Positions 1,684 through 31,233 of a stretch of DNA of 35,768 nt are shown here, in pieces (positions within the stretch are counted from its first letter, which is position 1; each line of letters opens with the position of its first letter). The notes under the pieces were generated by a model. The model was not told the DNA's origin. It saw only the letters and a program-made list of their open reading frames with translations, and did no database searches. A program made the translations under genes and the position numbers. Origin of the DNA: a virus; UHGV virus genome UHGV-1428581; one strand, given 5' to 3'.

Positions 1684-4600
1684 TTACGCCCAGCCTTTGG
1701 ATTTAATGAATCGCGCTACAAAATCTGCGTTGACCTGAACACCTGACCATAATGCATTAGCCTGACGATAACGCGACGGATGAAGGTTGTCATAACGCAG
1801 GGAGGATGGTGTTATGCCGTTTCCGATATCAGTTACATCCTGCGCATAATCAGGATTGTGGTGGTTTTTAAAGTTTTGCAGAAGATCCACCCCGCCGATT
1901 TCACAGTAGTTATCCGGCCAGGCCGCTTTGAGTTGCGCATTATAATTTGTCACAGTCGTTGCTCCTGCCGTTCCTGTCTTTTCATACGAATACGGGAATT
2001 CCGGCAGGATAACGAATTTCCCTGTACCCAGTGAATTGACGATAGCGGTCACATCGCTGATACCTTTAGCCCATGATGCGTTGTTTCGCATGCACTGGAT
2101 TATCACTATGTCATTTTTGAATGTCGGGTGGTCAGTCAGGTATTTTGTTGACCAGCTGTTCTGACGAACCCAGGACAATACAGTCATGGGTACCGCAGAA
2201 GGTACAGAAACAGCCTCACCCGGAGATGAGCGGGTGAATGTGATTTTTGACATATTTCCCCCAACATTTGTAGCGTTGATGATGCCCTCTACCCCGGCAA
2301 GTGTCACGTAGGCCCACGCTCCGCCATTCCATACAGCTTCTTCCTGTGGGGACAGTTCAACCGCGCCACTGGCGGGTATAACCCCACCTGCTGGCATGTA
2401 GGAATTTTTGTATGCGCCGAAAACAAGCGCGGTCTCTGTGGAGTTGGCACCGCCGCGAGCATAGTTAAACGCCCGCAGGCCCAGAGATTCAGAAACCCCG
2501 TTTGCAAAACCCTGTTCCGACAGAAACGAATGGCCAAACAGACTGATTCCGGTGGCGTCGTTTGTCTTTGTCGTTGTGTTTACCGTCGCTTTTGCGATTA
2601 ACCGGATGCGCGTTCCTGTCCCGATGCAAGCCGGGATATCACTGATAATGTCAGAGCCGTACCGCCTGGCAATGCATAGCTGCGCCGGATCGTCAGCGAG
2701 GAAGTAAGCAAAAAGCTCGCTGCCGGGCAGAAAGTTATTGTTCATCCCTGAAACGTAAGTCACTTCCACGCTTTGTTTTTTAAGCAAAAGCCCGTTCAGG
2801 GGGTTGAAAGTCCCGATATATAAATTTCCGTTCCCTCCACTTGCTGTCAGATGAAGGTCAATTTCATAGATAATCGAGTTATCATCAATCGTGTAAGCCG
2901 CGCTGGATGAAATCATGCTGATATTATTGTAACCGGCCCTCAGAACTGGCGTTGTAACCCCTTTATAATTTTTGAACTTCTGGGCGAAAAGCACTTCACG
3001 GATATAGCCAGATGCACCGTCATTGATAAAGTTGGTATCATCAAAGATAGTGTTAGTTCCGGATGCTGAATAGGAAAAATTATCGTTTTTAGTAGTATAT
3101 AGCCTGTTTCCCAGAATATTACAGTTGAACCCCGCAGCAGCCAGAGCCTGCCGGTTTTCCTTCAGGGAGTAAGCACCAAAAATAGTTTCATATTCGCTGG
3201 TTTTTTTACAGACATTATTAACAATGACTGCATCACTGGATGCATAAATCCAAAAGTCTACGGTACGGTTATCCTGAGAGAAGTTTCCGGATGCCTGAAT
3301 CCCGTTAACATTATTAGTTTCTGAGGGTGTTCCTGACACACCAATATCAATGCCACGGTTGAAATTATGCCTGACCGTATTATTTAAGTATTTATTTGAA
3401 TGCGAGTACGACCCGTTACCCCCAAGGTAGATACCAGACTGACCGTTGCATTCGCATGTGTTGTTGCTGATAGTGCAGCGCACAGAACCCTCCCCGGTAA
3501 TCCCATCCCAGAAAGGTGAAGTTGGATACCAGTCCTGTAAAAACTCATCAACAAAATGATTATTACAGTAATTATTGTCTATCAGAAAATCTTCACCACG
3601 ATGAGTAATCCCCATGGAGCAATACTGAATATCGCAAAACAAAATTTTGTTTCCGGCACCAGTACAGCGAATTCCATTGCTGAAGCCCATGACAGTATCA
3701 CCGGGCTTTCCGTTTATGGTCAGTCCATTGATTGTGCAGTCTTTCGAGTTTGCCTGGAGAAATACGCCGTATACCTGAACCGCTGAAATGCTCCCCTGAC
3801 CGCCCGTGTTGAAATAGACACCAAAGTTTTCAAGCCTTGACCCCACGCAAGCCATATTAAAAATAATGTGCATAGGTTCAGCGGGTGCTGTTTCCAGATA
3901 AACACCTGTTTCTGGCCCACCGCCACGGATTGTAACCCCATCCGGTATATCGAAAGACGATGATATTTTATATAGGGAACCCAATATTATTAATTTCACC
4001 GGGCCTTTTTTTGCGGCTTCAATGGTGCGATGAAGTGCCAATGAGAAATCATCATCGAGGGTTATATTTTCACTGAACATTTCAGGAGTCAGAAACCCAA
4101 GGCCGCCGATATTAGAAGCACCAGTAGGTTTTGCCAGTTCAATCATAACATCGGATGCGGATCCAGATTCTGGCAGGATCATTATCGGATTGCCGTCATT
4201 ATTCATTGCGACAATCTTATTTCTCCGCATTACCACCGAAGGTAGAGAGCCTATGTAACTCTCAGGCACACGTAAAGTTCGTATGAAATTGGCGTCGATC
4301 TTCTGATCAAGTTTTTTATCTGCCTCTTTCCATGCGTCCGTATTAGCATCAATTTTGTCATCAACATACTTTTTAGTTGTAGCATCATTGTCATCAATCG
4401 GATCTCCGAGGTTGGCGATTCGATAACCATCAGCGTTAAATGGACCTCCACCAAACAATGGGCGGCGAAGTGCAACACCGAGGTAAATAAACGCGCGTTG
4501 AATGGCCATCCATAGCCGGTCGAAATCTTTGTTAACCGTGTCGGCCAGAAGGTCGCCGTTGTCCTGGTAATCAGTGAGCCTGTACGTCGGCGTTACACGC

Positions 4601-14064: not shown

Positions 14065-16056
14065 TTAGCCCCCGTTGCTGGAGAACGTGAAAATAATCGC
14101 CAGCAGGTGAAACGGCAGCGGCTGGCGTTGCTGAATAATCAGAGTGTCTTCTCCGCGCTCCCAGCCAAGTTTCCCGAAATAATGATCACCAGTGAACAGC
14201 GGCGCGGGCTGGTTAAGGATTTTCGGGCCGAAGGTACGGAAAGGGAGCACCTGACCGTTGCACTCCGCGCCAGTGGTTTCCATAAAGCGCAGCGTGACTT
14301 CGCTGGTACGCTTGCGGGCGTTCTGCGTGGTGCCTTCGGTCGTTGAGATTTCCGGCGTCAGTGTCTGGATAGTGGTTTCATAATGCAGGCCGACTTCGAT
14401 TTTTTTCGCTTTGCGGCTGAGAGTGATTTGCCCGTCTGTTACCGTTGCCTGTGGCATCACGGAACCATCGGCCACCACATCAACCGTTTTTCCATTGAGA
14501 TGAGAAAGGCCTGTCCATGTGGTGGCACCTTCTGAACTGGAGCCGGTTACTGCGGAATCGGTATTCAGGGTGCTGTCGAATACTTCAACATAACGAACGG
14601 TCTGGCCGTTAACTTCACGGCGCACCAGCACATAAATCACGTCGTCGCTTTCCGAGGGAATACTCGCCACCGATTCAAAAACGCCATCGGTGATCTGGCG
14701 TGACCATGCGACTACATCCTGCGCCCGGTCGATCCCCATTGTGACCAGTACGCCATCGGCGCGGATCAGCCACACGAACGCATCAGGCTGTTGTTGATAC
14801 GCCATATCGAGAACGCCGCCGGCCGTGATGTGTTCGGCCAGCACCGTTAAATCATTGGCGGAATACGAAACGTAGCTGTCGGGGTCATACGCCACGGCAT
14901 ACAGTTTTTTTCCGGCGCGCTGGATAAACATAATTTCGGTACCGACACGAACCGGGCGAATGCTGTTGCATCCGTAAGGACTGGGATTTTTTACCGAAAT
15001 ATTGGTCGGGGTGATCGCCGCGTCGCTGCCGGCAGTGATTGTAAACTCGCCGCCGTACGTCAGCGCGATAAGCGTATTCATCTGCGCCAGATGCACAATC
15101 GGGTTTAACTGGTCAGAAGACAGCGTAAAGCTGATCGCGTCGTCGTCGTCCGTTCCCAGCTCAAACGACAGGTAAACGCCGGTTTCGCTCCACCAGATTG
15201 TTTGCGGGTACTGTGGGGAACCAGCCAGAACCAGCCGCTGCTGGTACAGCGTCACCGCGCCGGGGTAGCCAAATTCCTCCGTCCATACAGTATCCTCACG
15301 TGTCCAGGCTCCGGGGGATGCCGCCTGCGTCGCGCTTAAATCGGTGCGGATGGTGCCGACAGCAATCTGCGCGCTGGTGATGCTCTTAATCAGCACCAGA
15401 CCGCTGTTAATGCGAACGTATGAACCAACGTCCTCCGATACCCAGCCGGTGCCAGTAAACGCTGGGGAATCGTCATCATCTGCGGGTTCGGCATCACTGA
15501 GCGTCAGCGTGATTTCTGAGCCAACGAATTCTTTAACCGATGGCTTACACCATTTCTCCGGCGTGTCGCGGATTTCGTCGAATGGCTCAACGATAAACGG
15601 CGCGGCTTCCAGTACCCAATCAGTTTGTCCCTTACGCTGTAAGCGGTGCGGCGGGACGCTCTGGTGCACTAAAAACATCGTGTCAGCGCCCTGCACGTAA
15701 TTCACCTCAGACAACATATCGACGGTGTACGGGCTGGCGATTTCATACGGGGTATTATCGTCGTTTACCAGCTGCCGGCCGTTCTGGTAAATGCGCAGGT
15801 ATCCGTCGCCGAATTCGAGCATGTACGCCTGCGAGCGGTTAAAGACGTAGGGGATCAGTCGTGCTGTCCGGTCACCATATTTAGCGGCAGCGGCAAAGCG
15901 CATACCTGGTCGGCGAACGACACCGCCCTGCACCACGCACACCGCGTTTTCGATAATTTTTGCACCGTTGGCATAGCGGGCGATATCAACACGCCCCATC
16001 AGGCGCGGGGAAATTTCCCCGGCTGTAAAATTGGTTTTTATCAGGTTCGCGCGCAT
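14065..16056 (-). CDS. Tail tubular protein B (T7 gp12-like)
   Basis: 663 aa. N-terminus (LIKTNFTAGEISPRLMGRVDIARYANGAKII...RRPGMRF) resembles the gp12 family. Follows the gp11-like gene with a 1-nt overlap. Confidence 0.65.
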   Translation of the reverse strand: MRANLIKTNFTAGEISPRLMGRVDIARYANGAKIIENAVCVVQGGVVRRPGMRFAAAAKYGDRTARLIPYVFNRSQAYMLEFGDGYLRIYQNGRQLVNDDNTPYEIASPYTVDMLSEVNYVQGADTMFLVHQSVPPHRLQRKGQTDWVLEAAPFIVEPFDEIRDTPEKWCKPSVKEFVGSEITLTLSDAEPADDDDSPAFTGTGWVSEDVGSYVRINSGLVLIKSITSAQIAVGTIRTDLSATQAASPGAWTREDTVWTEEFGYPGAVTLYQQRLVLAGSPQYPQTIWWSETGVYLSFELGTDDDDAISFTLSSDQLNPIVHLAQMNTLIALTYGGEFTITAGSDAAITPTNISVKNPSPYGCNSIRPVRVGTEIMFIQRAGKKLYAVAYDPDSYVSYSANDLTVLAEHITAGGVLDMAYQQQPDAFVWLIRADGVLVTMGIDRAQDVVAWSRQITDGVFESVASIPSESDDVIYVLVRREVNGQTVRYVEVFDSTLNTDSAVTGSSSEGATTWTGLSHLNGKTVDVVADGSVMPQATVTDGQITLSRKAKKIEVGLHYETTIQTLTPEISTTEGTTQNARKRTSEVTLRFMETTGAECNGQVLPFRTFGPKILNQPAPLFTGDHYFGKLGWERGEDTLIIQQRQPLPFHLLAIIFTFSSNGG

Positions 16057-18220: not shown

Positions 18221-18253
18221 TGGTCTTTCCTCTGGTTAGGTTGTCGTGACATG

Positions 18254-22434: not shown

Positions 22435-23031
22435 TCAGGCGGCATAGCTGAATAATTGCGAGGCTGCGTTTTCTGCTGCCTGCTGAGTGGGGAAGGTGCG
22501 GAATAGAATAAAATTCCAGAGGACGTCTAATACGGATTTATACAGCTGGGAGAATTCTACATCGTCCATTTTTGCGAACGATATTGATTTGGGTTCCTTG
22601 CGGGTGGTGCCATCAGGCATCTGGTATTCGGTATAAAAACCGGCTTCGATAGTTACCCAGGAACGGAATGCTTCAAACGATTTAACTGCGCTGATATTCC
22701 CTGCGCGTTTTTCTGCCTCATCGCGAAGGTACTGATCCGCCAGTTCCTGCAATGTGTCTGCATGCCCGGCATAGTGGGCCACCAGCTGCACATAACCACG
22801 AACCAGTTTTTTATCAGCTGGCGATATTGCACCGCCGGAAGGCTGCCAGTAATCAAATCCAAGATTCAGGAGGGCAAAAAATTTACGGTGAAATGCCGGG
22901 TTTCTTGCCTGCTTAAAATCTGCATACAAAATACCGCCCAGGCGGACTTTTTTTTCTAAAAAATCGCGGGCGTCAGGCGTTGCCGGAATTAATACACCGC
23001 CGGGTGCTTTTACAAAAGAATACTGCGCCAT
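22435..23031 (-). CDS. Hypothetical nin-region protein (possibly NinB/Orf- or DUF1367-like)
   Basis: 198 aa; weak resemblance only. Confidence 0.4.
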   Translation of the reverse strand: MAQYSFVKAPGGVLIPATPDARDFLEKKVRLGGILYADFKQARNPAFHRKFFALLNLGFDYWQPSGGAISPADKKLVRGYVQLVAHYAGHADTLQELADQYLRDEAEKRAGNISAVKSFEAFRSWVTIEAGFYTEYQMPDGTTRKEPKSISFAKMDDVEFSQLYKSVLDVLWNFILFRTFPTQQAAENAASQLFSYAA

Positions 23032-23099
23032 TGGGATCCCCTTTAGCGCAGCAATTGTTCAGAATTACATGGTGTTGGGTGTTCAGGCCAACAGTGTAA

Positions 23100-23291
23100 T
23101 TATAGCATATTGCCGTCTGGTTTGATAATGGTATAACCAGTCAATTTAGCTAATTCAAACAACGCGTTAAGTGTCGCTACGTGCTCATCGGGATGGACAA
23201 TTCTGGTCTTCTTAATCTTCCCATTTTCACACGTAATCAGTACATCACCATTGTCGGGGAGAAGGTCTCCTGCGTCTTTCTTATCAACCAC
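23100..23291 (-). CDS. LexA-box-controlled 63-aa protein, candidate SOS-inducible antirepressor (GTG start)
   Basis: GAGGAGAGG SD 2 nt before GTG. A strong LexA box lies 20-39 nt upstream. The gene sits in an AT-rich island. Confidence 0.55.
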   Translation of the reverse strand: MVDKKDAGDLLPDNGDVLITCENGKIKKTRIVHPDEHVATLNALFELAKLTGYTIIKPDGNML

Positions 23292-23310
23292 TACCTCTCC
23301 TCAACAATAA

Positions 23311-23330
23311 TACTGTATAAATTCACAGTA
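23311..23330. promoter_or_regulatory. LexA (SOS) box TACTGTATAAATTCACAGTA overlapping the promoter of gene 23100-23291
   Basis: CTGT-N8-ACAG with 17/20 match to the consensus TACTGTATATATATACAGTA. Confidence 0.7.
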
Positions 23331-23434
23331 TATATACTACCAACGAGTAGTGATCGCAAATTTTTAAGGGCATAAATTGATAAATCACATCTTTTATCAA
23401 GAACATATAAGACTTCACAAAAAATGATTACTCC

Positions 23435-23773
23435 TCACACTGCCAGCTTAGTTTCGTGCCACCCTCGCGTTACCCAGCATTGCGAATCACCTGCACACGG
23501 GCAGGAGGTGATCGGCAGCGACTCACCGCACTTTCCACACAGGCGTTTGCTGATCGATTTGATGTGGCCACTAAGCCGCGCATCATCCTGACGGATCAGC
23601 ATAGCTATGTACTCGGCCAGTTCGTACGGTTCACGCCCCGGACGCCGGGCGGCGCAGTTACGCGCCAGCATGTCCATTTCCTGCGCATCGAGAACCAACT
23701 CAATTTTCCGGTTCCCGGCGGCAGACTGCCGCGCTCGCTGCGCGGCTTTACGTTCTGCGGATGATTTAGCCAT
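23435..23773 (-). CDS. Hypothetical 112-aa protein with C-terminal Cys-cluster (CGKCG...C.C...C), possible zinc-finger regulator
   Basis: ORF with basic N-terminus and C4-type cysteine spacing. Confidence 0.45.
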   Translation of the reverse strand: MAKSSAERKAAQRARQSAAGNRKIELVLDAQEMDMLARNCAARRPGREPYELAEYIAMLIRQDDARLSGHIKSISKRLCGKCGESLPITSCPCAGDSQCWVTRGWHETKLAV

Positions 23774-23785
23774 TAACCACCCCAG

Positions 23786-24403
23786 TTAGCTGGACAATCG
23801 TTTGATCGCATGGCGGAGCATTACCTGTGCATACAGCGCCGGAGCAAGCACCTGCGGCATTTTTGCATAACCCGACATTGAAAAGGCATGGCGTATCCCC
23901 TGTGGTGCTGCGCGTAAATTGTCGATGCTGTTATTACTGAAATCATTGTCCAGATGGATAACTGTGTATCCTGCTGGCAGTTTGCCATGCACACACTCGT
24001 AAACGTACACATCCAGCCGGACATTTTTTTTGTTTACGCGGATCCGCTGAGCCTGATTTGGTCTACGGTTTTTAGGTTCCCGAAGCCACCCACGAGCCTT
24101 TTTGGCATACTTGATATGCTTAGGCATTTTCCGGGTTCCAAATCGCTGGTTAAAACGCTCCGTAAGCTCGCCGATCGTCAGATTCTTATTGGCATAAATA
24201 AACGTCAGTTGCTCATCTGTATAGCGAGGAACACTCAGCAAGAACTTATTTAATCCAGTTACCCTGAGGTACTGGCGGATCGCGTCAACGCTTTTGTTTG
24301 TCTCAAAACACACGTTAAACATTTCGGTTAGTTCGCGGGCTGTAACTCCCTTTACGTTCTGCTCCAGGAAAAGAATCTGAGTAGTAGTGTATTTTCCTCT
24401 CAT
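23786..24403 (-). CDS. HNH endonuclease (HNH_3-type, homing-endonuclease-like) with duplicated N-terminal HTH-like repeats
   Basis: VHGKLPAGYTVIHLDNDFSNNSIDNL matches the H-x-D...NN...N HNH_3 signature. Confidence 0.75.
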   Translation of the reverse strand: MRGKYTTTQILFLEQNVKGVTARELTEMFNVCFETNKSVDAIRQYLRVTGLNKFLLSVPRYTDEQLTFIYANKNLTIGELTERFNQRFGTRKMPKHIKYAKKARGWLREPKNRRPNQAQRIRVNKKNVRLDVYVYECVHGKLPAGYTVIHLDNDFSNNSIDNLRAAPQGIRHAFSMSGYAKMPQVLAPALYAQVMLRHAIKRLSS

Positions 24404-28970: not shown

Positions 28971-29417
28971 TTAAACGCTGGTCAGGCGCTGTGTTTCTCG
29001 CATAGCTTGCAAAGCTCTTGCGACTTGCTGCGGCCCATCTCTGGCGTCGAGTAACAACGCGATAATCGCCGCGGCAAACTCGCGAATGGCCACACAAATT
29101 AAATACTGGGTGGACATACCCAAGCGCGCGTAACGTTCTGCCGGCAGCGCCGCTTCCATCGCTTTGACCAGCGCCAGAGTTTTGGCTCTCGCGGCTTTGG
29201 TCTCGCCTCGCAACCAACGAAAAATTTGTTGGCGGTTGTTGTTGATTGCCCGCCAGTCGGCGTTTCCATCTGCATCTTCGATCTGGTGCAGCTTCAGCGA
29301 ACCGGTATTACCACCAAGACGAAACCACATGCGGCTTATCTCGATAGCAACCAGCTCCTGCCCGCTTTCCGCTGCCCAGTTAAAGATCTCTCGTTTAAGT
29401 TCTTCGAGGTATTCCAC
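28971..29417 (-). CDS. YdaT-like protein (Rac prophage ydaT family; CII-like domain)
   Basis: 148 aa. NNNRQQIFRWLRGETKAARAKTL resembles YdaT NNQQNIYHRWLKGETKTQREKIQKL. Follows the cro-like gene as in Rac. Confidence 0.65.
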   Translation of the reverse strand: MEYLEELKREIFNWAAESGQELVAIEISRMWFRLGGNTGSLKLHQIEDADGNADWRAINNNRQQIFRWLRGETKAARAKTLALVKAMEAALPAERYARLGMSTQYLICVAIREFAAAIIALLLDARDGPQQVARALQAMRETQRLTSV

Positions 29418-29479: not shown

Positions 29480-29713
29480 TTAAGCTGCATTCTGTTCCGG
29501 CAGTCCGTCAGTTGGTTTTCGGTAAATATTGGGGAGTAGATCATGCGGTGTTACTTGATAGCCAGTTGCAGCGGCCCATTTCAATGCAGTTGCAGCACCA
29601 AGTAGGCATTTTCCTGATGCAACGCGACTGACATAGCCCTGCGTCTCGCCAACCACTTGAGCGAAATCCTGCTGGCGAACGCCAGAGGTCTTTAGATAGG
29701 TTTTAAGATCCAT
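29480..29713 (-). CDS. Cro-like HTH regulator (YdaS / DUF1019-type)
   Basis: 77 aa. HTH VRQQDFAQVVGETQGYVSRV. AGGAGG SD. Divergent from the repressor gene. Confidence 0.75.
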   Translation of the reverse strand: MDLKTYLKTSGVRQQDFAQVVGETQGYVSRVASGKCLLGAATALKWAAATGYQVTPHDLLPNIYRKPTDGLPEQNAA

Positions 29714-29812
29714 TTGTCCTCCTAGAATGTATGTGACACATGAATATTAGTATCACGAATATAGAAGTGTCAATAGTTACACGATTGGGAGGAAATTAAT
29801 TTTACGAATAAT
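29714..29812. promoter_or_regulatory. Divergent promoter/operator region between cro-like and repressor genes
   Basis: Leftward candidate promoter TTGACA-N18-TAATAT (minus strand). Weak rightward GTGACA-N18-GAATAT. Repeated lambda-like half-sites GTGACAC, GTATCAC, GTTACAC and inverted GTGTCAA. An 11-bp palindrome ATGTGACACAT. Confidence 0.5.
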
Positions 29813-30277
29813 ATGGGCGCCATGAGAAAGAAAACGCTTGATGCAGCTGAAGCTGATGCAGCCCAAAGGCTGCGTGACATATGGAACGAGAAAAAAGTAA
29901 CTTTACGTCTCACTCAGGAAAAGGCGGCAGACGCTCTCGGCTTTAGCACGCAGGCTACTGTTAGTCAGTATTTGAATGGCAGCATTCCACTAAACACAGA
30001 TGCGACATTAAAATTTTCAGCTCTTCTGGGCGTAAAACCTGAGGACATTAGGCCAGACCTCGCTGAACTAATGAATTATGTCAGGAAATCAGGATCCCAC
30101 GTTCAAGATTATTCAGCTGCTGGCTGGCGACTTCTGAAACCAGAAGAGGCAGAATTAGTAGAACTGTACGAAAGACTTCCTCTGAGCGAAAAAGAAAGGC
30201 ATCTAACTGAATTAAAAGATAAAGTCAGTGGATTCGACCGCCTTTTTGAAGAACTTCTAGCCACAAGAAAACAATAA
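29813..30277 (+). CDS. Prophage repressor, XRE-family HTH, lacking an S24 (LexA-like) autocleavage domain
   Basis: 154 aa. HTH LTQEKAADALGFSTQATVSQYLNG. The C-terminal half is helical and charged with no Ser-Lys dyad or Ala-Gly site. Confidence 0.7.
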   Translation: MGAMRKKTLDAAEADAAQRLRDIWNEKKVTLRLTQEKAADALGFSTQATVSQYLNGSIPLNTDATLKFSALLGVKPEDIRPDLAELMNYVRKSGSHVQDYSAAGWRLLKPEEAELVELYERLPLSEKERHLTELKDKVSGFDRLFEELLATRKQ

Positions 30278-30293
30278 ATTCCCCTCCAAAATA

Positions 30294-30319
30294 ATCCCGC
30301 ATCGTCGGGATTTTTTTTA
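30294..30319 (+). terminator. Rho-independent terminator after the repressor gene
   Basis: ATCCCG-CATCGT-CGGGAT followed by TTTTTTTT. Confidence 0.7.
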
Positions 30320-30372
30320 TCCTTTTTTATCAATGGCATACAAAAAATATTCGCATTACGATTATTTTTATC

Positions 30373-30401: not shown

Positions 30402-30549
30402 CTACCACATCAACGACGCACTAACCACGCGGCAGTTGTTCAGAAACAGTTCTGACAGTCCGGAAAGACGGGCACGAATTCTTCGGGTCGCCGACAGTAC
30501 GATGACATGCGGGAAAGACCGCAACGAATACGAATTGCTGTGTGTAGTC

Positions 30550-30577
30550 TTGGCCCGGGCGCCCCGGGCATTTTTTT
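30550..30577 (+). terminator. Rho-independent terminator about 170 nt downstream of the early promoter (attenuator or small-RNA terminator)
   Basis: GCCCGGG-CGC-CCCGGGC followed by ATTTTTTT. Confidence 0.6.
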
Positions 30578-30909
30578 AACACAGTAACGATTTATGCGAC
30601 CCTTCAGTGAAAACTGAAGCCCTCGAAAAGAGGGACCCTGTGAGGAAAGACCAGTGAGCCTGACCAGCTCTGGCGCCGGGAAAGACCGGGAGGAAAGACC
30701 AATGACCAACGGGCATGACCAGCCCTGACAGCCGGGAAAGACCGGCAACCTTTAGATGGCAAAAGGCCCGCACAAGGCGGGCCAGTTACCCCGAACGGTG
30801 ACCAAACCATTCGGACTTATCACAAGCGACCAAGCTTGTGATGAGGAAAGACCAATGCCGACAGAGTCAACACTGATCGGCTCTGAGTATACATCAACAA
30901 GGAGTCGCT

Positions 30910-31233
30910 ATGGAAGCGCTTACCATCCCCGTAACTGTTTACGTTATGGCCACAACGAACCCATATCTACCAACGTCTTATCACTCATTCACCTGTGACA
31001 TGTCACAGCAATACCCTGATCTGTATGTCCTCGTTACTACCAAAACGGTAGAGGTTCCCATTCCGGCTTTAGAGCCAATCGACATTATTGGTATGCAGGT
31101 TAATGCCCTTCGCGCGAAGAAAGAGAAAATCTCTGCCGAAGCAAAGAAGGAGCTGGGTGTTATTGAAGACCAGATTCAGCAGCTGCTGTGCATCGATCAC
31201 TCTCCGATTGAAGAAAGCGACGTACCGTTTTAA
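30910..31233 (+). CDS. Hypothetical 107-aa early protein
   Basis: AAGGAG 6 nt upstream of ATG; first substantial ORF of the rightward operon. Confidence 0.55.
   Translation: MEALTIPVTVYVMATTNPYLPTSYHSFTCDMSQQYPDLYVLVTTKTVEVPIPALEPIDIIGMQVNALRAKKEKISAEAKKELGVIEDQIQQLLCIDHSPIEESDVPF

What the first reader, a model, noticed from the sequence alone, without database searches (positions are those of the whole stretch)
23100..23330. LexA-box-controlled small gene plus a non-cleavable repressor: a probable antirepressor-based SOS induction circuit
A strong SOS box (TACTGTATAAATTCACAGTA, CTGT-N8-ACAG) sits 20 nt upstream of a 63-aa GTG-initiated ORF with a strong SD, inside an AT-rich island in the nin-like region. 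The immunity repressor (29813-30277) has an XRE HTH but no S24 peptidase domain, so it cannot be inactivated by RecA-stimulated autocleavage. Established precedent exists for small LexA-repressed antirepressors that bind non-cleavable repressors (coliphage 186 Tum, Gifsy-family antirepressors, N15 AntC). This 63-aa protein shows no similarity I can recognise to those and may be a new antirepressor family. Alternatives are an SOS-induced toxin or another SOS moron.
Basis: partly seen in the sequence, partly recalled or inferred. Interest (0 to 1): 0.65.

Follow-up and report, generated by a model that had tools for sequence, protein, structure and literature searches.

The report
LexA-controlled Gifsy/Rem-type prophage antirepressor
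A 63-residue prophage gene behind a strong, conserved LexA box is a relative of the small antirepressors GfoA, FsoA and Rem, so this is a known kind of SOS induction switch in a Klebsiella-type prophage and not a new family.

Summary
TACTGTATAAATTCACAGTA (23311-23330) is the only strong LexA-like site in the window. It abuts a conserved -10 element and lies 19 nt upstream of a GTG-initiated 63-aa ORF (23100-23291, minus strand) that is under purifying selection. All 64 loci with a close homologue, the window included, keep an exact CTGT-N8-ACAG at that position while the spacer drifts.

The 154-aa repressor (29813-30277) is a DicA/RacR-type short repressor. It has an HTH and a DicA-like C-terminal segment but no S24 peptidase domain, and it sits divergently from Cro-like and YdaT/CII-like genes.

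Its claim of a possible new family is not. The 63-aa protein is homologous to Fels-1 FsoA (BLASTP 7e-8; hhalign 97.6%), to a GfoA orthologue (3e-7; 95.7%) and to E. coli Rem (hhalign 93%; same PHROG, phrog_340; close relatives labelled Pfam PF27490 'Rem'). It occupies the gfoA/gftA slot directly upstream of an irsA/DUF1367 gene that is 57% identical to the Gifsy-2 copy.

It differs from the Gifsy operon in lacking dinI and in being a minimal 63-aa core. Identical antirepressor alleles occur with up to four heteroimmune repressor types. LexA binding, repressor binding and induction are all inferred, not shown. Verdict: a new member of a known kind, of modest interest.

The parts
23311..23330 (.). 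LexA (SOS) box TACTGTATAAATTCACAGTA. On the gene strand it reads TACTGTGAATTTATACAGTA.
   Evidence: HI 3.12, and the only site in the window with HI <= 12. An exact CTGT-N8-ACAG is kept in all 64 close-homologue loci.
23331..23359 (-). Putative sigma-70 promoter. The -35 TTGCGA is at 23354-23359, followed by a 17-nt spacer and the -10 TATATA at 23331-23336. The -10 directly abuts the LexA box, so the expected transcription start falls inside the box.
   Evidence: Read from the sequence. The -35 TTGC and -10 TATAWA are conserved across 47 distinct upstream regions while the spacer varies. The consensus scanner did not report it, because its -10 rule requires T at position 6.
23294..23302 (-). 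Shine-Dalgarno sequence GAGGAGAGG.
   Evidence: A purine-rich block is kept in the relatives.
23100..23291 (-). 63-aa GTG-initiated gene: a small antirepressor of the GfoA/FsoA/Rem family.
   Evidence: phrog_340, E 8.6e-23. Homology to Rem, FsoA and a GfoA orthologue. dN/dS is 0.07-0.21. In L024 an ATG replaces the GTG at the same position. AF2 model pLDDT 85.7.
22435..23031 (-). irsA/DUF1367 (NinB-like) gene immediately downstream, probably co-transcribed.
   Evidence: PF07105, E 6.6e-85. 57% identical to Gifsy-2 STM1020, the irsA homologue, E 3e-88.
29813..30277 (+). 154-aa DicA/RacR-type immunity repressor with an HTH domain and a DicA-like C-terminal segment but no S24 domain. It is the proposed target.
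   Evidence: Pfam reports HTH_3 only. 51% identical over its full length to the 'dicA' gene of phage Rac-SA53. 31% identical to K-12 DicA, E 2e-12. NCBIfam 'DicA' matches residues 108-154.
29734..29772 (.). Operator-like inverted repeat between the divergent repressor and cro-like genes.
   Evidence: 18-nt arms, 78% complementary.
29480..29713 (-). Cro-like HTH gene, first gene of the early-right operon that the repressor would silence.
   Evidence: phrog_35, E 1.3e-19. HTH_3.
28971..29417 (-). YdaT/CII-like gene.
   Evidence: phrog_163 'CII-like'. PF06254 YdaT.

Best explanation
This is the SOS input module of a lambdoid, Rac/Gifsy-like prophage of Klebsiella type.

In a healthy lysogen, host LexA would sit on the box at 23311-23330. 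The box abuts the -10 element and covers the expected start site of a dedicated promoter, so the 63-aa gene stays silent. The irsA/DUF1367 gene behind it is probably silenced too. The 154-aa DicA-type repressor would hold the divergent early promoters off. It cannot cleave itself because it has no S24 peptidase domain.

DNA damage activates RecA and LexA cleaves itself. The 63-aa protein would then be made, bind the repressor and take it off its operators, as shown for the Gifsy proteins GfoA and GftA. The Cro-like, YdaT/CII-like and replication genes would then be expressed.

What is shown here:
- the box, its strength, its position and its conservation;
- the repressor's family and its lack of an S24 domain;
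- homology of the small protein to three proven antirepressors;
- its synteny with gfoA/gftA.

What is inferred:
- LexA binding;
- SOS inducibility;
- physical binding to this repressor;
- that this route is required for induction.

One further inference rests on allele sharing. Identical antirepressor alleles occur with several heteroimmune repressor types that share the C-terminal LPxSEK..GFxRLFEELL segment. The contact is therefore probably with a conserved part of the repressor, so one antirepressor may also induce co-resident heteroimmune relatives.
For: Box. In each related locus scanned whole, the box upstream of the rem-like gene is the only site with HI <= 8.

Gene reality: dN/dS is 0.07-0.21, and variable sites by codon position are 36/23/52.

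Family:
- The protein matches phrog_340 at 8.6e-23, and Rem matches the same PHROG at 4.4e-21.
- hhalign of the 63-aa family (A1) against Rem gives probability 93.4%, E 2.5e-7.
- FsoA was located exactly, using the primers published for it. It matches the window protein by BLASTP at 7e-8, by hhalign at 97.6% and E 2.9e-12, and by an HMM built from the 63-aa family alone at 2.4e-13.
- A GfoA orthologue in phage SEN34 was found with the published gfoA primer tags. It sits in a dinI-gfoA-irsA operon behind a LexA box, and matches the window protein by BLASTP at 3e-7 and by hhalign at 95.7%, E 9.4e-9.
- Precomputed 'PF27490:Rem' labels are on close relatives.

Synteny: the downstream gene is 57% identical to Gifsy-2 irsA. 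GenBank MN652886 annotates 'rem: prophage antirepressor' followed by irsA, alongside a dicA repressor.

Repressor. In 47 of 48 related loci where the immunity region is in reach, the repressor is 128-157 aa with the DicA-like C-terminus.

Function of homologues, from the literature: GfoA, GftA and FsoA bind and inactivate short Gifsy repressors, and gfoA/gftA are LexA-controlled (PMC3121763). Rem derepresses the DicA-controlled dicBp promoter 165-fold (PMC10448788).

Own promoter: in relatives L007-L012 the upstream neighbour is on the opposite strand, so the gene needs a promoter of its own.
Against: Nothing here is experimental. LexA binding, induction and protein-protein contact are all untested for this element.

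The link to GftA, the Gifsy-2 antirepressor, is weak (hhalign probability 10-20%, E 1e-3 to 3e-3; BLASTP finds nothing).

Two subgroups of the family lack a LexA box. These are the 83-aa E. coli Rem group, including a functional phage, and the FsoA-like genes in early-left operons. LexA control is therefore a feature of this branch and of the Gifsy branch, not of the whole family.

One relative (L065) carries the same box and gene next to a 258-aa repressor that is probably of the S24 type. The module is therefore not strictly tied to non-cleavable repressors.

Free reassortment of antirepressor alleles with repressor types could also mean that the protein's main target is not the repressor encoded in cis.

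The LexA matrix was built from boxes recalled from memory.
Confidence: 0.8

Rival explanations
1. The protein is a real SOS-induced antirepressor that works mainly in trans. Its principal targets would be repressors of other co-resident prophages, and this prophage would be induced by another route.
For: Identical antirepressor alleles occur with up to four different repressor types. L065 pairs the module with a probable S24 repressor. There is a precedent: Fels-1 FsoA plays no role in Fels-1 induction but inactivates the Gifsy-2 repressor (PMC3121763).
Against: In 47 of 48 loci the repressor encoded in cis is the short DicA type, which has no known way of sensing SOS by itself. The window has no other LexA-like site, and no S24 domain turned up in the neighbouring gene products I scanned. 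In Gifsy-1, -2 and -3 the homologous arrangement is the cis induction route.
Confidence: 0.1
2. The LexA-controlled promoter exists mainly to make the downstream recombination genes (irsA/DUF1367 and the Ref-like nuclease) SOS-inducible. On this view the small ORF has some other, non-regulatory role.
For: The box heads a run of co-directional genes: the 63-aa gene, DUF1367 and a RecA-dependent nuclease. In Gifsy the LexA operon also carries dinI and irsA (PMC3121763).
Against: The small protein is homologous to three proteins with demonstrated antirepressor activity. In Gifsy, non-polar dinI and irsA deletions had no effect on induction, whereas the small gene alone was sufficient (PMC3121763). 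A promoter-like site at 23128-23099 could serve irsA separately.
Confidence: 0.05
3. The gene is an SOS-induced toxin or other moron unrelated to the lysis-lysogeny switch. This is the alternative the first reader offered.
For: Small LexA-controlled toxins exist, for example TisB, DinQ and HokE (general knowledge). Rem overexpression causes filamentation, though it does so through DicA derepression (PMC10448788).
Against: The protein is hydrophilic with no hydrophobic segment (read from the sequence). It models as a soluble helix, beta-hairpin, helix domain. I saw no toxin family match for it in Pfam, NCBIfam or PHROGs. The homology evidence points to antirepressors.
Confidence: 0.03
4. The box is a chance palindrome in AT-rich DNA with no function.
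For: The region is AT-rich, and AT-rich DNA produces LexA-like spacers easily.
Against: HI is 3.12, against 7.21 or worse for the best site in each of 100 shuffles. The CTGT and ACAG arms are invariant in 47 distinct upstream sequences whose spacer and flanks have diverged. Boxes also precede more distant homologues at 40-52% identity (L079, L073, L070).
Confidence: 0.02

Closest known systems
GfoA/GfhA of Salmonella Gifsy-1/Gifsy-3 (Lemire, Figueroa-Bossi & Bossi 2011, PMC3121763)
   Same: Both are small proteins with a non-ATG start (GTG here, TTG in the SEN34 gfoA orthologue). Both lie in the nin region directly upstream of irsA, behind a LexA box 19 nt from the first start codon. The partner is a short repressor of about 130-155 aa in the DicA/RacR/GfoR group. 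The sequences are homologous (BLASTP 3e-7; hhalign 95.7%). One antirepressor serves heteroimmune repressors: this was shown for GfoA, and here it is suggested by allele sharing.
   Different: There is no dinI gene between the box and the antirepressor. The protein is shorter: 63 aa, against about 82 aa for the SEN34 orthologue counted from its TTG. Identity is only about 33%. The host is Klebsiella or Raoultella, and the phage has a different structural module. The function is untested.
FsoA of Salmonella prophage Fels-1 (PMC3121763)
   Same: It belongs to the same protein family (BLASTP 7e-8; hhalign 97.6%). It is a proven antirepressor of a short Gifsy repressor.
   Different: fsoA lies in the early-left operon under the control of a cleavable CI-type repressor. 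It has no LexA box (and the FsoA-like loci) and is dispensable for induction of its own phage.
Rem of the E. coli K-12 Qin prophage (Ragunathan et al. 2023, PMC10448788); Pfam PF27490 'Rem'; phrog_340
   Same: It is in the same PHROG, and hhalign gives 93%. The partner repressor is DicA, to which the window's repressor is 31% identical. In intact relatives the synteny rem-irsA-ybcO-Q is the same.
   Different: Rem is 83 aa, with an extra segment of about 24-28 residues after the N-terminal helix. No LexA box precedes it, even in functional phages. [quoted passage not shown]
GftA of Gifsy-2
   Same: It has the same operon slot, size class, GUG start and function.
   Different: The sequence relationship is not demonstrable here. 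It belongs to a different PHROG, phrog_4847.
Tum of coliphage 186 and AntC of N15
   Same: Both are LexA-repressed antirepressors that act on non-cleavable repressors (as cited in PMC3121763).
   Different: Tum is 146 aa with a DinI-like half, and it acts on a P2/186-type CI. I did not compare either sequence with this protein. The resemblance is one of logic only.

Membership tests
GfoA/FsoA/Rem small antirepressors (phrog_340; Pfam PF27490 'Rem') | Significant sequence similarity to experimentally characterised members | tested here: met
   FsoA: BLASTP 7e-8, hhalign 97.6%, HMM 2.4e-13. GfoA orthologue: 3e-7 and 95.7%. Rem: hhalign 93.4%, same PHROG.
GfoA/FsoA/Rem small antirepressors (phrog_340; Pfam PF27490 'Rem') | Passes the curated Pfam PF27490 threshold | tested here: inconclusive
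   PF27490 appears to be missing from the local Pfam copy: neither the window protein nor P0015, which carries a precomputed PF27490 label, gave any hit. Precomputed PF27490 hits exist for P0015 (79% identical) and P0034 (73%), and 'weak' or 'faint' ones for more distant 63-aa members. Most close relatives carry none.
GfoA/FsoA/Rem small antirepressors (phrog_340; Pfam PF27490 'Rem') | Small single-domain protein of about 60-90 aa | tested here: met
   63 aa. The AF2 model is one compact helix, hairpin, helix unit with pLDDT 85.7.
GfoA/FsoA/Rem small antirepressors (phrog_340; Pfam PF27490 'Rem') | Binds its repressor and releases it from the operator | not testable with these tools
   This needs EMSA, pull-down or genetics.
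Gifsy-type LexA-controlled antirepressor operon | LexA box overlapping the promoter of the operon that holds the antirepressor | tested here: met
   The box-to-start distance is 19 nt, the same as for the Gifsy dinI genes (PMC8072944, Table 1).
Gifsy-type LexA-controlled antirepressor operon | Antirepressor gene immediately upstream of irsA in the nin region, downstream of the replication genes | tested here: met
   The downstream gene is 57% identical to Gifsy-2 irsA. The O-like and DnaB genes lie upstream.
Gifsy-type LexA-controlled antirepressor operon | dinI homologue as the first gene of the operon | tested here: not met
   There is no ORF between the box and the 63-aa gene. The same is true in all 64 close loci.
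Gifsy-type LexA-controlled antirepressor operon | Rho-independent terminator just upstream of the LexA promoter | tested here: inconclusive
   Only a weak AT-rich hairpin is present (TTGATAAA-N8-TTTATCAA). The fold z-score is -1.64, and the scanner reports no terminator on that strand.
DicA/RacR/GfoR/GtgR short prophage repressors (the proposed target) | N-terminal XRE-type HTH, about 130-155 aa in total, divergent from a cro-like gene | tested here: met
   HTH_3 at residues 33-78. The Cro-like and YdaT/CII-like neighbours are in place.
DicA/RacR/GfoR/GtgR short prophage repressors (the proposed target) | DicA-like C-terminal segment (LPxSEK...FxxLFEELL) | tested here: met
   K-12 DicA, E 2e-12. 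NCBIfam DicA matches residues 108-154 at E 7.8e-14, though below the whole-protein cut-off. GtgR C-terminus, E 0.005.
DicA/RacR/GfoR/GtgR short prophage repressors (the proposed target) | No S24 peptidase domain, hence no RecA-stimulated self-cleavage | tested here: met
   No Peptidase_S24 hit, and only about 75 residues follow the HTH. An Ala-Gly dipeptide is present (..SAAGW..) but there is no catalytic domain to use it. Absence of cleavage in vivo is not testable here.
LexA regulon operator (gamma-proteobacterial SOS box) | CTGT-N8-ACAG palindrome with an AT-rich spacer and a low heterology index | tested here: met
   HI 3.12 with a matrix of 29 boxes listed from memory.
LexA regulon operator (gamma-proteobacterial SOS box) | Bound by LexA; transcription induced on DNA damage | not testable with these tools
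   This needs EMSA, ChIP or RNA measurements.
Large Ant/KilA-N/Bro-type antirepressors (P22 Ant-like) | KilA-N, ANT or Bro-N domains in a protein of about 200-300 aa | tested here: not met
   No Pfam domain, and only 63 aa. A 285-aa protein (P0053) does carry KilA-N and Ant regions followed by a C-terminal copy of this domain.

The most novel reading that the evidence does not exclude
The 63-aa protein would be the minimal core of the GfoA/FsoA/Rem fold, and no solved structure resembles its predicted model. It would recognise the conserved C-terminal LPxSEK..GFxRLFEELL segment of DicA-type repressors and not their variable DNA-binding domains. One SOS-induced antirepressor allele would then act as a master key, co-inducing heteroimmune prophages in Klebsiella polylysogens. 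On this reading, a LexA box immediately before the antirepressor gene is one input that this family can carry, and the E. coli Rem branch lacks it.
Probability: 0.35. Interest if true: 0.45.

Novelty: new member of a known kind. Interest (0 to 1): 0.3.

Why it matters
It extends the Gifsy paradigm to a large group of Klebsiella and Raoultella prophages. In that paradigm LexA controls a small antirepressor, which in turn inactivates a non-cleavable DicA-type repressor. All 64 loci examined here carry a conserved box.

It also ties GfoA, FsoA, Rem and these unannotated 'hypothetical proteins' into one family by sequence. This gives a simple annotation rule: a LexA box, then a 60-85-aa gene with the G..L....NG......R...DEH.ASL...ELA..AGY motif, then irsA.

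The natural signal for E. coli Rem is reported as unknown. The family's LexA-controlled branches show one input that such genes can have.

For Klebsiella, SOS-inducing antibiotics such as fluoroquinolones would be predicted to induce these prophages through this gene, possibly several heteroimmune ones at once.

None of this is conceptually new.

Tried and rejected
- Pfam and NCBIfam give nothing for the 63-aa protein. PF27490 appears to be absent from the local Pfam copy.
- BLASTP against GftA and against Rem finds nothing significant. Only profile methods link Rem, and GftA stays unlinked.
- The profile search of PDB sequences gave only noise, with E >= 0.17.
- I built a paired alignment of repressor, linker and antirepressor to model the complex as one chain.
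- The search for related loci with the family alignment failed for lack of a conserved stretch. The genome-contig scan gave only two loci.
- Exact gfoA primer tags were not found in viral contigs. A blastn of the tag against annotated phages did find SEN34 and mEp237.
- megablast against the complete E. coli genomes found nothing.
- Rfam finds no family anywhere in the window.
- I considered whether the second CTGT-N8-ACAG match at 30993 is a LexA site and rejected it. Its spacer is G+C-rich, its HI is above 12, and it lies inside an ORF.
- I considered the N-terminally extended 86-107-aa gene calls seen in databases and rejected them for this window, because an in-frame TGA lies at 23301-23303.

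Full report
**What is in the sequence**

The plus strand reads TACTGTATAAATTCACAGTA at 23311-23330. On the minus strand a GTG at 23291 opens a 63-codon ORF ending at 23100. It is preceded by GAGGAGAGG, and an in-frame TGA at 23301-23303 excludes a longer N-terminus. The box ends 19 nt before the GTG.

Read on the gene strand, TTGCGA (23354-23359), a 17-nt spacer and TATATA (23331-23336) directly abut the box. The expected transcription start therefore falls inside the box. The consensus scanner did not list this promoter because its -10 rule requires a T at position 6.

GC falls to 0.29 at 23275-23424, against about 0.5-0.6 on either side.

**Is the box more than chance?**

The bare pattern CTGT-N8-ACAG occurs twice in the window, against 0.28 expected. 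That alone is weak evidence.

I computed a Berg-von Hippel heterology index from 29 E. coli LexA boxes listed from memory. The site scores 3.12, better than recA or lexA in the same matrix. It is the only position in 35.8 kb with HI <= 12. The best site in each of 100 shuffled windows scored 7.21 or worse. The other pattern match, CTGTGACATGTCACAG at 30993, has a G+C-rich spacer and is not LexA-like.

The stronger argument is comparative. I gathered 64 loci, the window included, that encode a 65-97% identical protein. They came from IMG/VR, NCBI Klebsiella and Raoultella genomes and a sewage phage isolate. Every one has an exact CTGT-N8-ACAG 15-24 nt before the start. In 47 distinct upstream sequences ACTGT and ATACAG are invariant. 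The -35 TTGC and the -10 TATAWA are nearly invariant. The 8-nt box spacer, the promoter spacer and the flanks have all diverged.

In each related locus I scanned whole, this is the only site with HI <= 8. More distant homologues at 40-52% identity also have strong boxes upstream:
- E. coli phage vB_EcoM-705R4: TACTGTATAAATATACAGGT, 20 nt from the ATG.
- P0042 loci: TGCTGTATATAATTACAGTA, 75 nt upstream.
- P0039 loci: a box 169 nt upstream.

**Is the ORF a gene?**

Forty-eight distinct 192-nt alleles have no indels. Variable sites by codon position number 36, 23 and 52. Pairwise dN/dS against the window is 0.07-0.21. In one relative an ATG replaces the GTG at the same position. In relatives L007-L012 the upstream neighbour lies on the opposite strand, so the gene needs its own promoter.

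**The repressor**

The 154-aa ORF at 29813-30277 has only HTH_3/HTH_31 in Pfam, at residues 33-78. Its similarities are:
- 51% identity over its full length to the 'dicA' gene of phage Rac-SA53;
- 31% identity to K-12 DicA, E 2e-12;
- the NCBIfam 'transcriptional repressor DicA' model matches residues 108-154;
- its C-terminus resembles that of Gifsy-2 GtgR, E 0.005.

It lies divergently from a Cro-like gene, a YdaT/CII-like gene, an O-like initiator and a DnaB helicase. An 18-nt-arm inverted repeat sits in the intergenic region. None of the neighbouring gene products I scanned has an S24 domain. An Ala-Gly dipeptide is present, but there is no catalytic domain to use it.

Lemire et al. place DicA and RacR in the same group as the Gifsy repressors GfoR and GtgR. 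They showed that the Gifsy repressors are not cleaved and are inactivated by small antirepressors (PMC3121763).

**What the 63-aa protein is**

Pfam and NCBIfam give nothing. PHROGs places it in phrog_340 ('unknown function', E 8.6e-23), with a weak match to the C-terminus of a 268-aa 'anti-repressor' family. Public homologues are all 'hypothetical protein', mostly from Klebsiella. A full HMMER scan of 1.84 billion representatives finds only 28 clusters.

The decisive results are the links to characterised proteins.

- **Rem.** E. coli K-12 Rem derepresses the DicA-controlled dicBp promoter 165-fold (PMC10448788). It matches the same PHROG at 4.4e-21. It aligns to the 63-aa family profile with hhalign probability 93.4%, E 2.5e-7. 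Rem equals the 63-aa core plus an extra segment of about 24-28 residues. Precomputed labels 'PF27490:Rem' sit on close relatives.
- **FsoA.** I located Fels-1 fsoA exactly by finding the paper's own primers le154 and le162 in the Fels-1 record. It is STM0898.2n, 78 aa. It matches the window protein by BLASTP at 7e-8 (34% identity over 44 residues). It matches the family profile at 97.6%, E 2.9e-12. An HMM built only from the 63-aa family scores it at 2.4e-13.
- **GfoA.** The gfoA primer tags (le117, le163) led to Salmonella phage SEN34. There a TTG-initiated gene lies between dinI and irsA, behind TACTGTATAAAAATACAGTG placed 19 nt before dinI. This GfoA orthologue matches the window protein at 3e-7 (33% over 52 residues) and the family profile at 95.7%, E 9.4e-9.
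- **GftA.** Only the Gifsy-2 protein GftA remains unlinked.

**Synteny**

The gene downstream (22435-23031, DUF1367) is 57% identical to Gifsy-2 STM1020, the irsA homologue. The 63-aa gene therefore sits in exactly the gfoA/gftA slot. GenBank record MN652886 already annotates 'rem: prophage antirepressor' followed by irsA, ybcO and Q, alongside a dicA repressor.

The difference from Gifsy is that no dinI lies between the box and the antirepressor gene.

**Variation within the family**

The 83-aa E. coli Rem subgroup (hok-rem-irsA) has no LexA box, and this includes the functional phage mEp460_ev081. [quoted passage not shown]

FsoA-like genes in early-left operons next to CI-type S24 repressors also lack a box. 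LexA control is therefore a property of this branch and of the Gifsy branch.

**Pairing with repressors**

The immunity region was within reach in 48 related loci. In 47 of them the repressor is 128-157 aa with the C-terminal LPxSEK..GFxRLFEELL segment. One locus (L065) has a 258-aa repressor, probably of the S24 type.

The repressors fall into about seven to ten N-terminal types. Mean pairwise identity is 39% in the N-terminal part and 58% in the C-terminal part. Identical antirepressor alleles occur with up to four repressor types.

This parallels GfoA and GfhA acting on the heteroimmune GfoR and GfhR (PMC3121763). It suggests contact with a conserved part of the repressor. That is an inference only.

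**Structure**

**Verdict**

It rests on homology, synteny and conservation, and on no experiment.

The suggestion of a new antirepressor family is not supported. The gene is a short, dinI-less, LexA-controlled member of the GfoA/FsoA/Rem family, paired with a DicA-type repressor. That makes it a new member of a known kind. The allele-sharing pattern and the minimal core give it some modest extra interest.

Noticed in passing
window 30462-30853 (+ strand), also 31268: Seven copies of GGAAAGAC(C/G) lie within about 400 nt of apparently non-coding DNA, between the repressor gene's terminator-like hairpin (about 30290-30325) and the first early-left ORFs. Across the window there are 22 matches at <= 1 mismatch, against 6.6 expected. 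No Rfam family matches. The function is unknown; it could be a protein- or RNA-binding array in the early-left leader.
   Followed up: partly
window 30993-31008: There is a perfect 16-bp palindrome, CTGTGACATGTCACAG, inside the ORF 30910-31233. It matches CTGT-N8-ACAG but is not LexA-like (HI > 12). Similar palindromes with 2-3 mismatches occur at 18245 and 17787.
   Followed up: partly
window 23099-23128 (minus strand): A promoter-like TTATCA-18-TATAAT with an extended-10 TG lies at the 3' end of the 63-aa ORF. It could drive irsA/DUF1367 independently of LexA.
   Followed up: no
window 23032-23099; L001 11690-11767; L004 10190-10260: The short spacer between the antirepressor gene and irsA keeps a TGGCCTGAACA(A/C)CC motif in this window, in Gifsy-2 and in the Raoultella locus, even though the antirepressor genes themselves are very different.
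   Followed up: no
L065 (IMGVR_UViG_2767802184_000002), repressor at 2870-3646: This relative has the same LexA box and rem-like gene but a 258-aa repressor, probably of the S24 type, in place of the short DicA type. The situation resembles Fels-1 and FsoA.
   Followed up: no
P0053 (285 aa), P0052 (120 aa), P0058 (240 aa): The Rem-like domain also occurs fused to other parts. In P0053 it is C-terminal to KilA-N and Ant regions, in P0052 it is in tandem, and in P0058 it precedes another domain. It may be a portable repressor-binding module within larger antirepressors.
   Followed up: partly
Database gene calls P0002-P0013: Many metagenome gene calls for close homologues are 86-107 aa, extended upstream through the LexA box. 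In the window an in-frame TGA at 23301-23303 excludes this. These calls are probably start-site errors.
   Followed up: partly
OM816834/OM816835 (L006): Two phages deposited as 'Stenotrophomonas phage vB_SmeS_BUCT708/709' share this whole regulatory module at about 76-81% identity with Klebsiella prophages. The stated host looks doubtful.
   Followed up: no
L007, L009, L011 at about 15051-15335: Related prophages carry an Acb2/Tad1-hairpin gene, an anti-CBASS/Thoeris sponge family, within the structural module.
   Followed up: no
window 23435-23773 and 23786-24403 (minus strand): Just upstream of the LexA promoter lie a 112-aa protein of phrog_536 ('transcriptional regulator', no Pfam hit) and an HNH_3 endonuclease gene. 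Relatives carry other cargo in this position, for example an RloB/ATPase pair in BUCT708. The position is a variable insertion hotspot.
   Followed up: no
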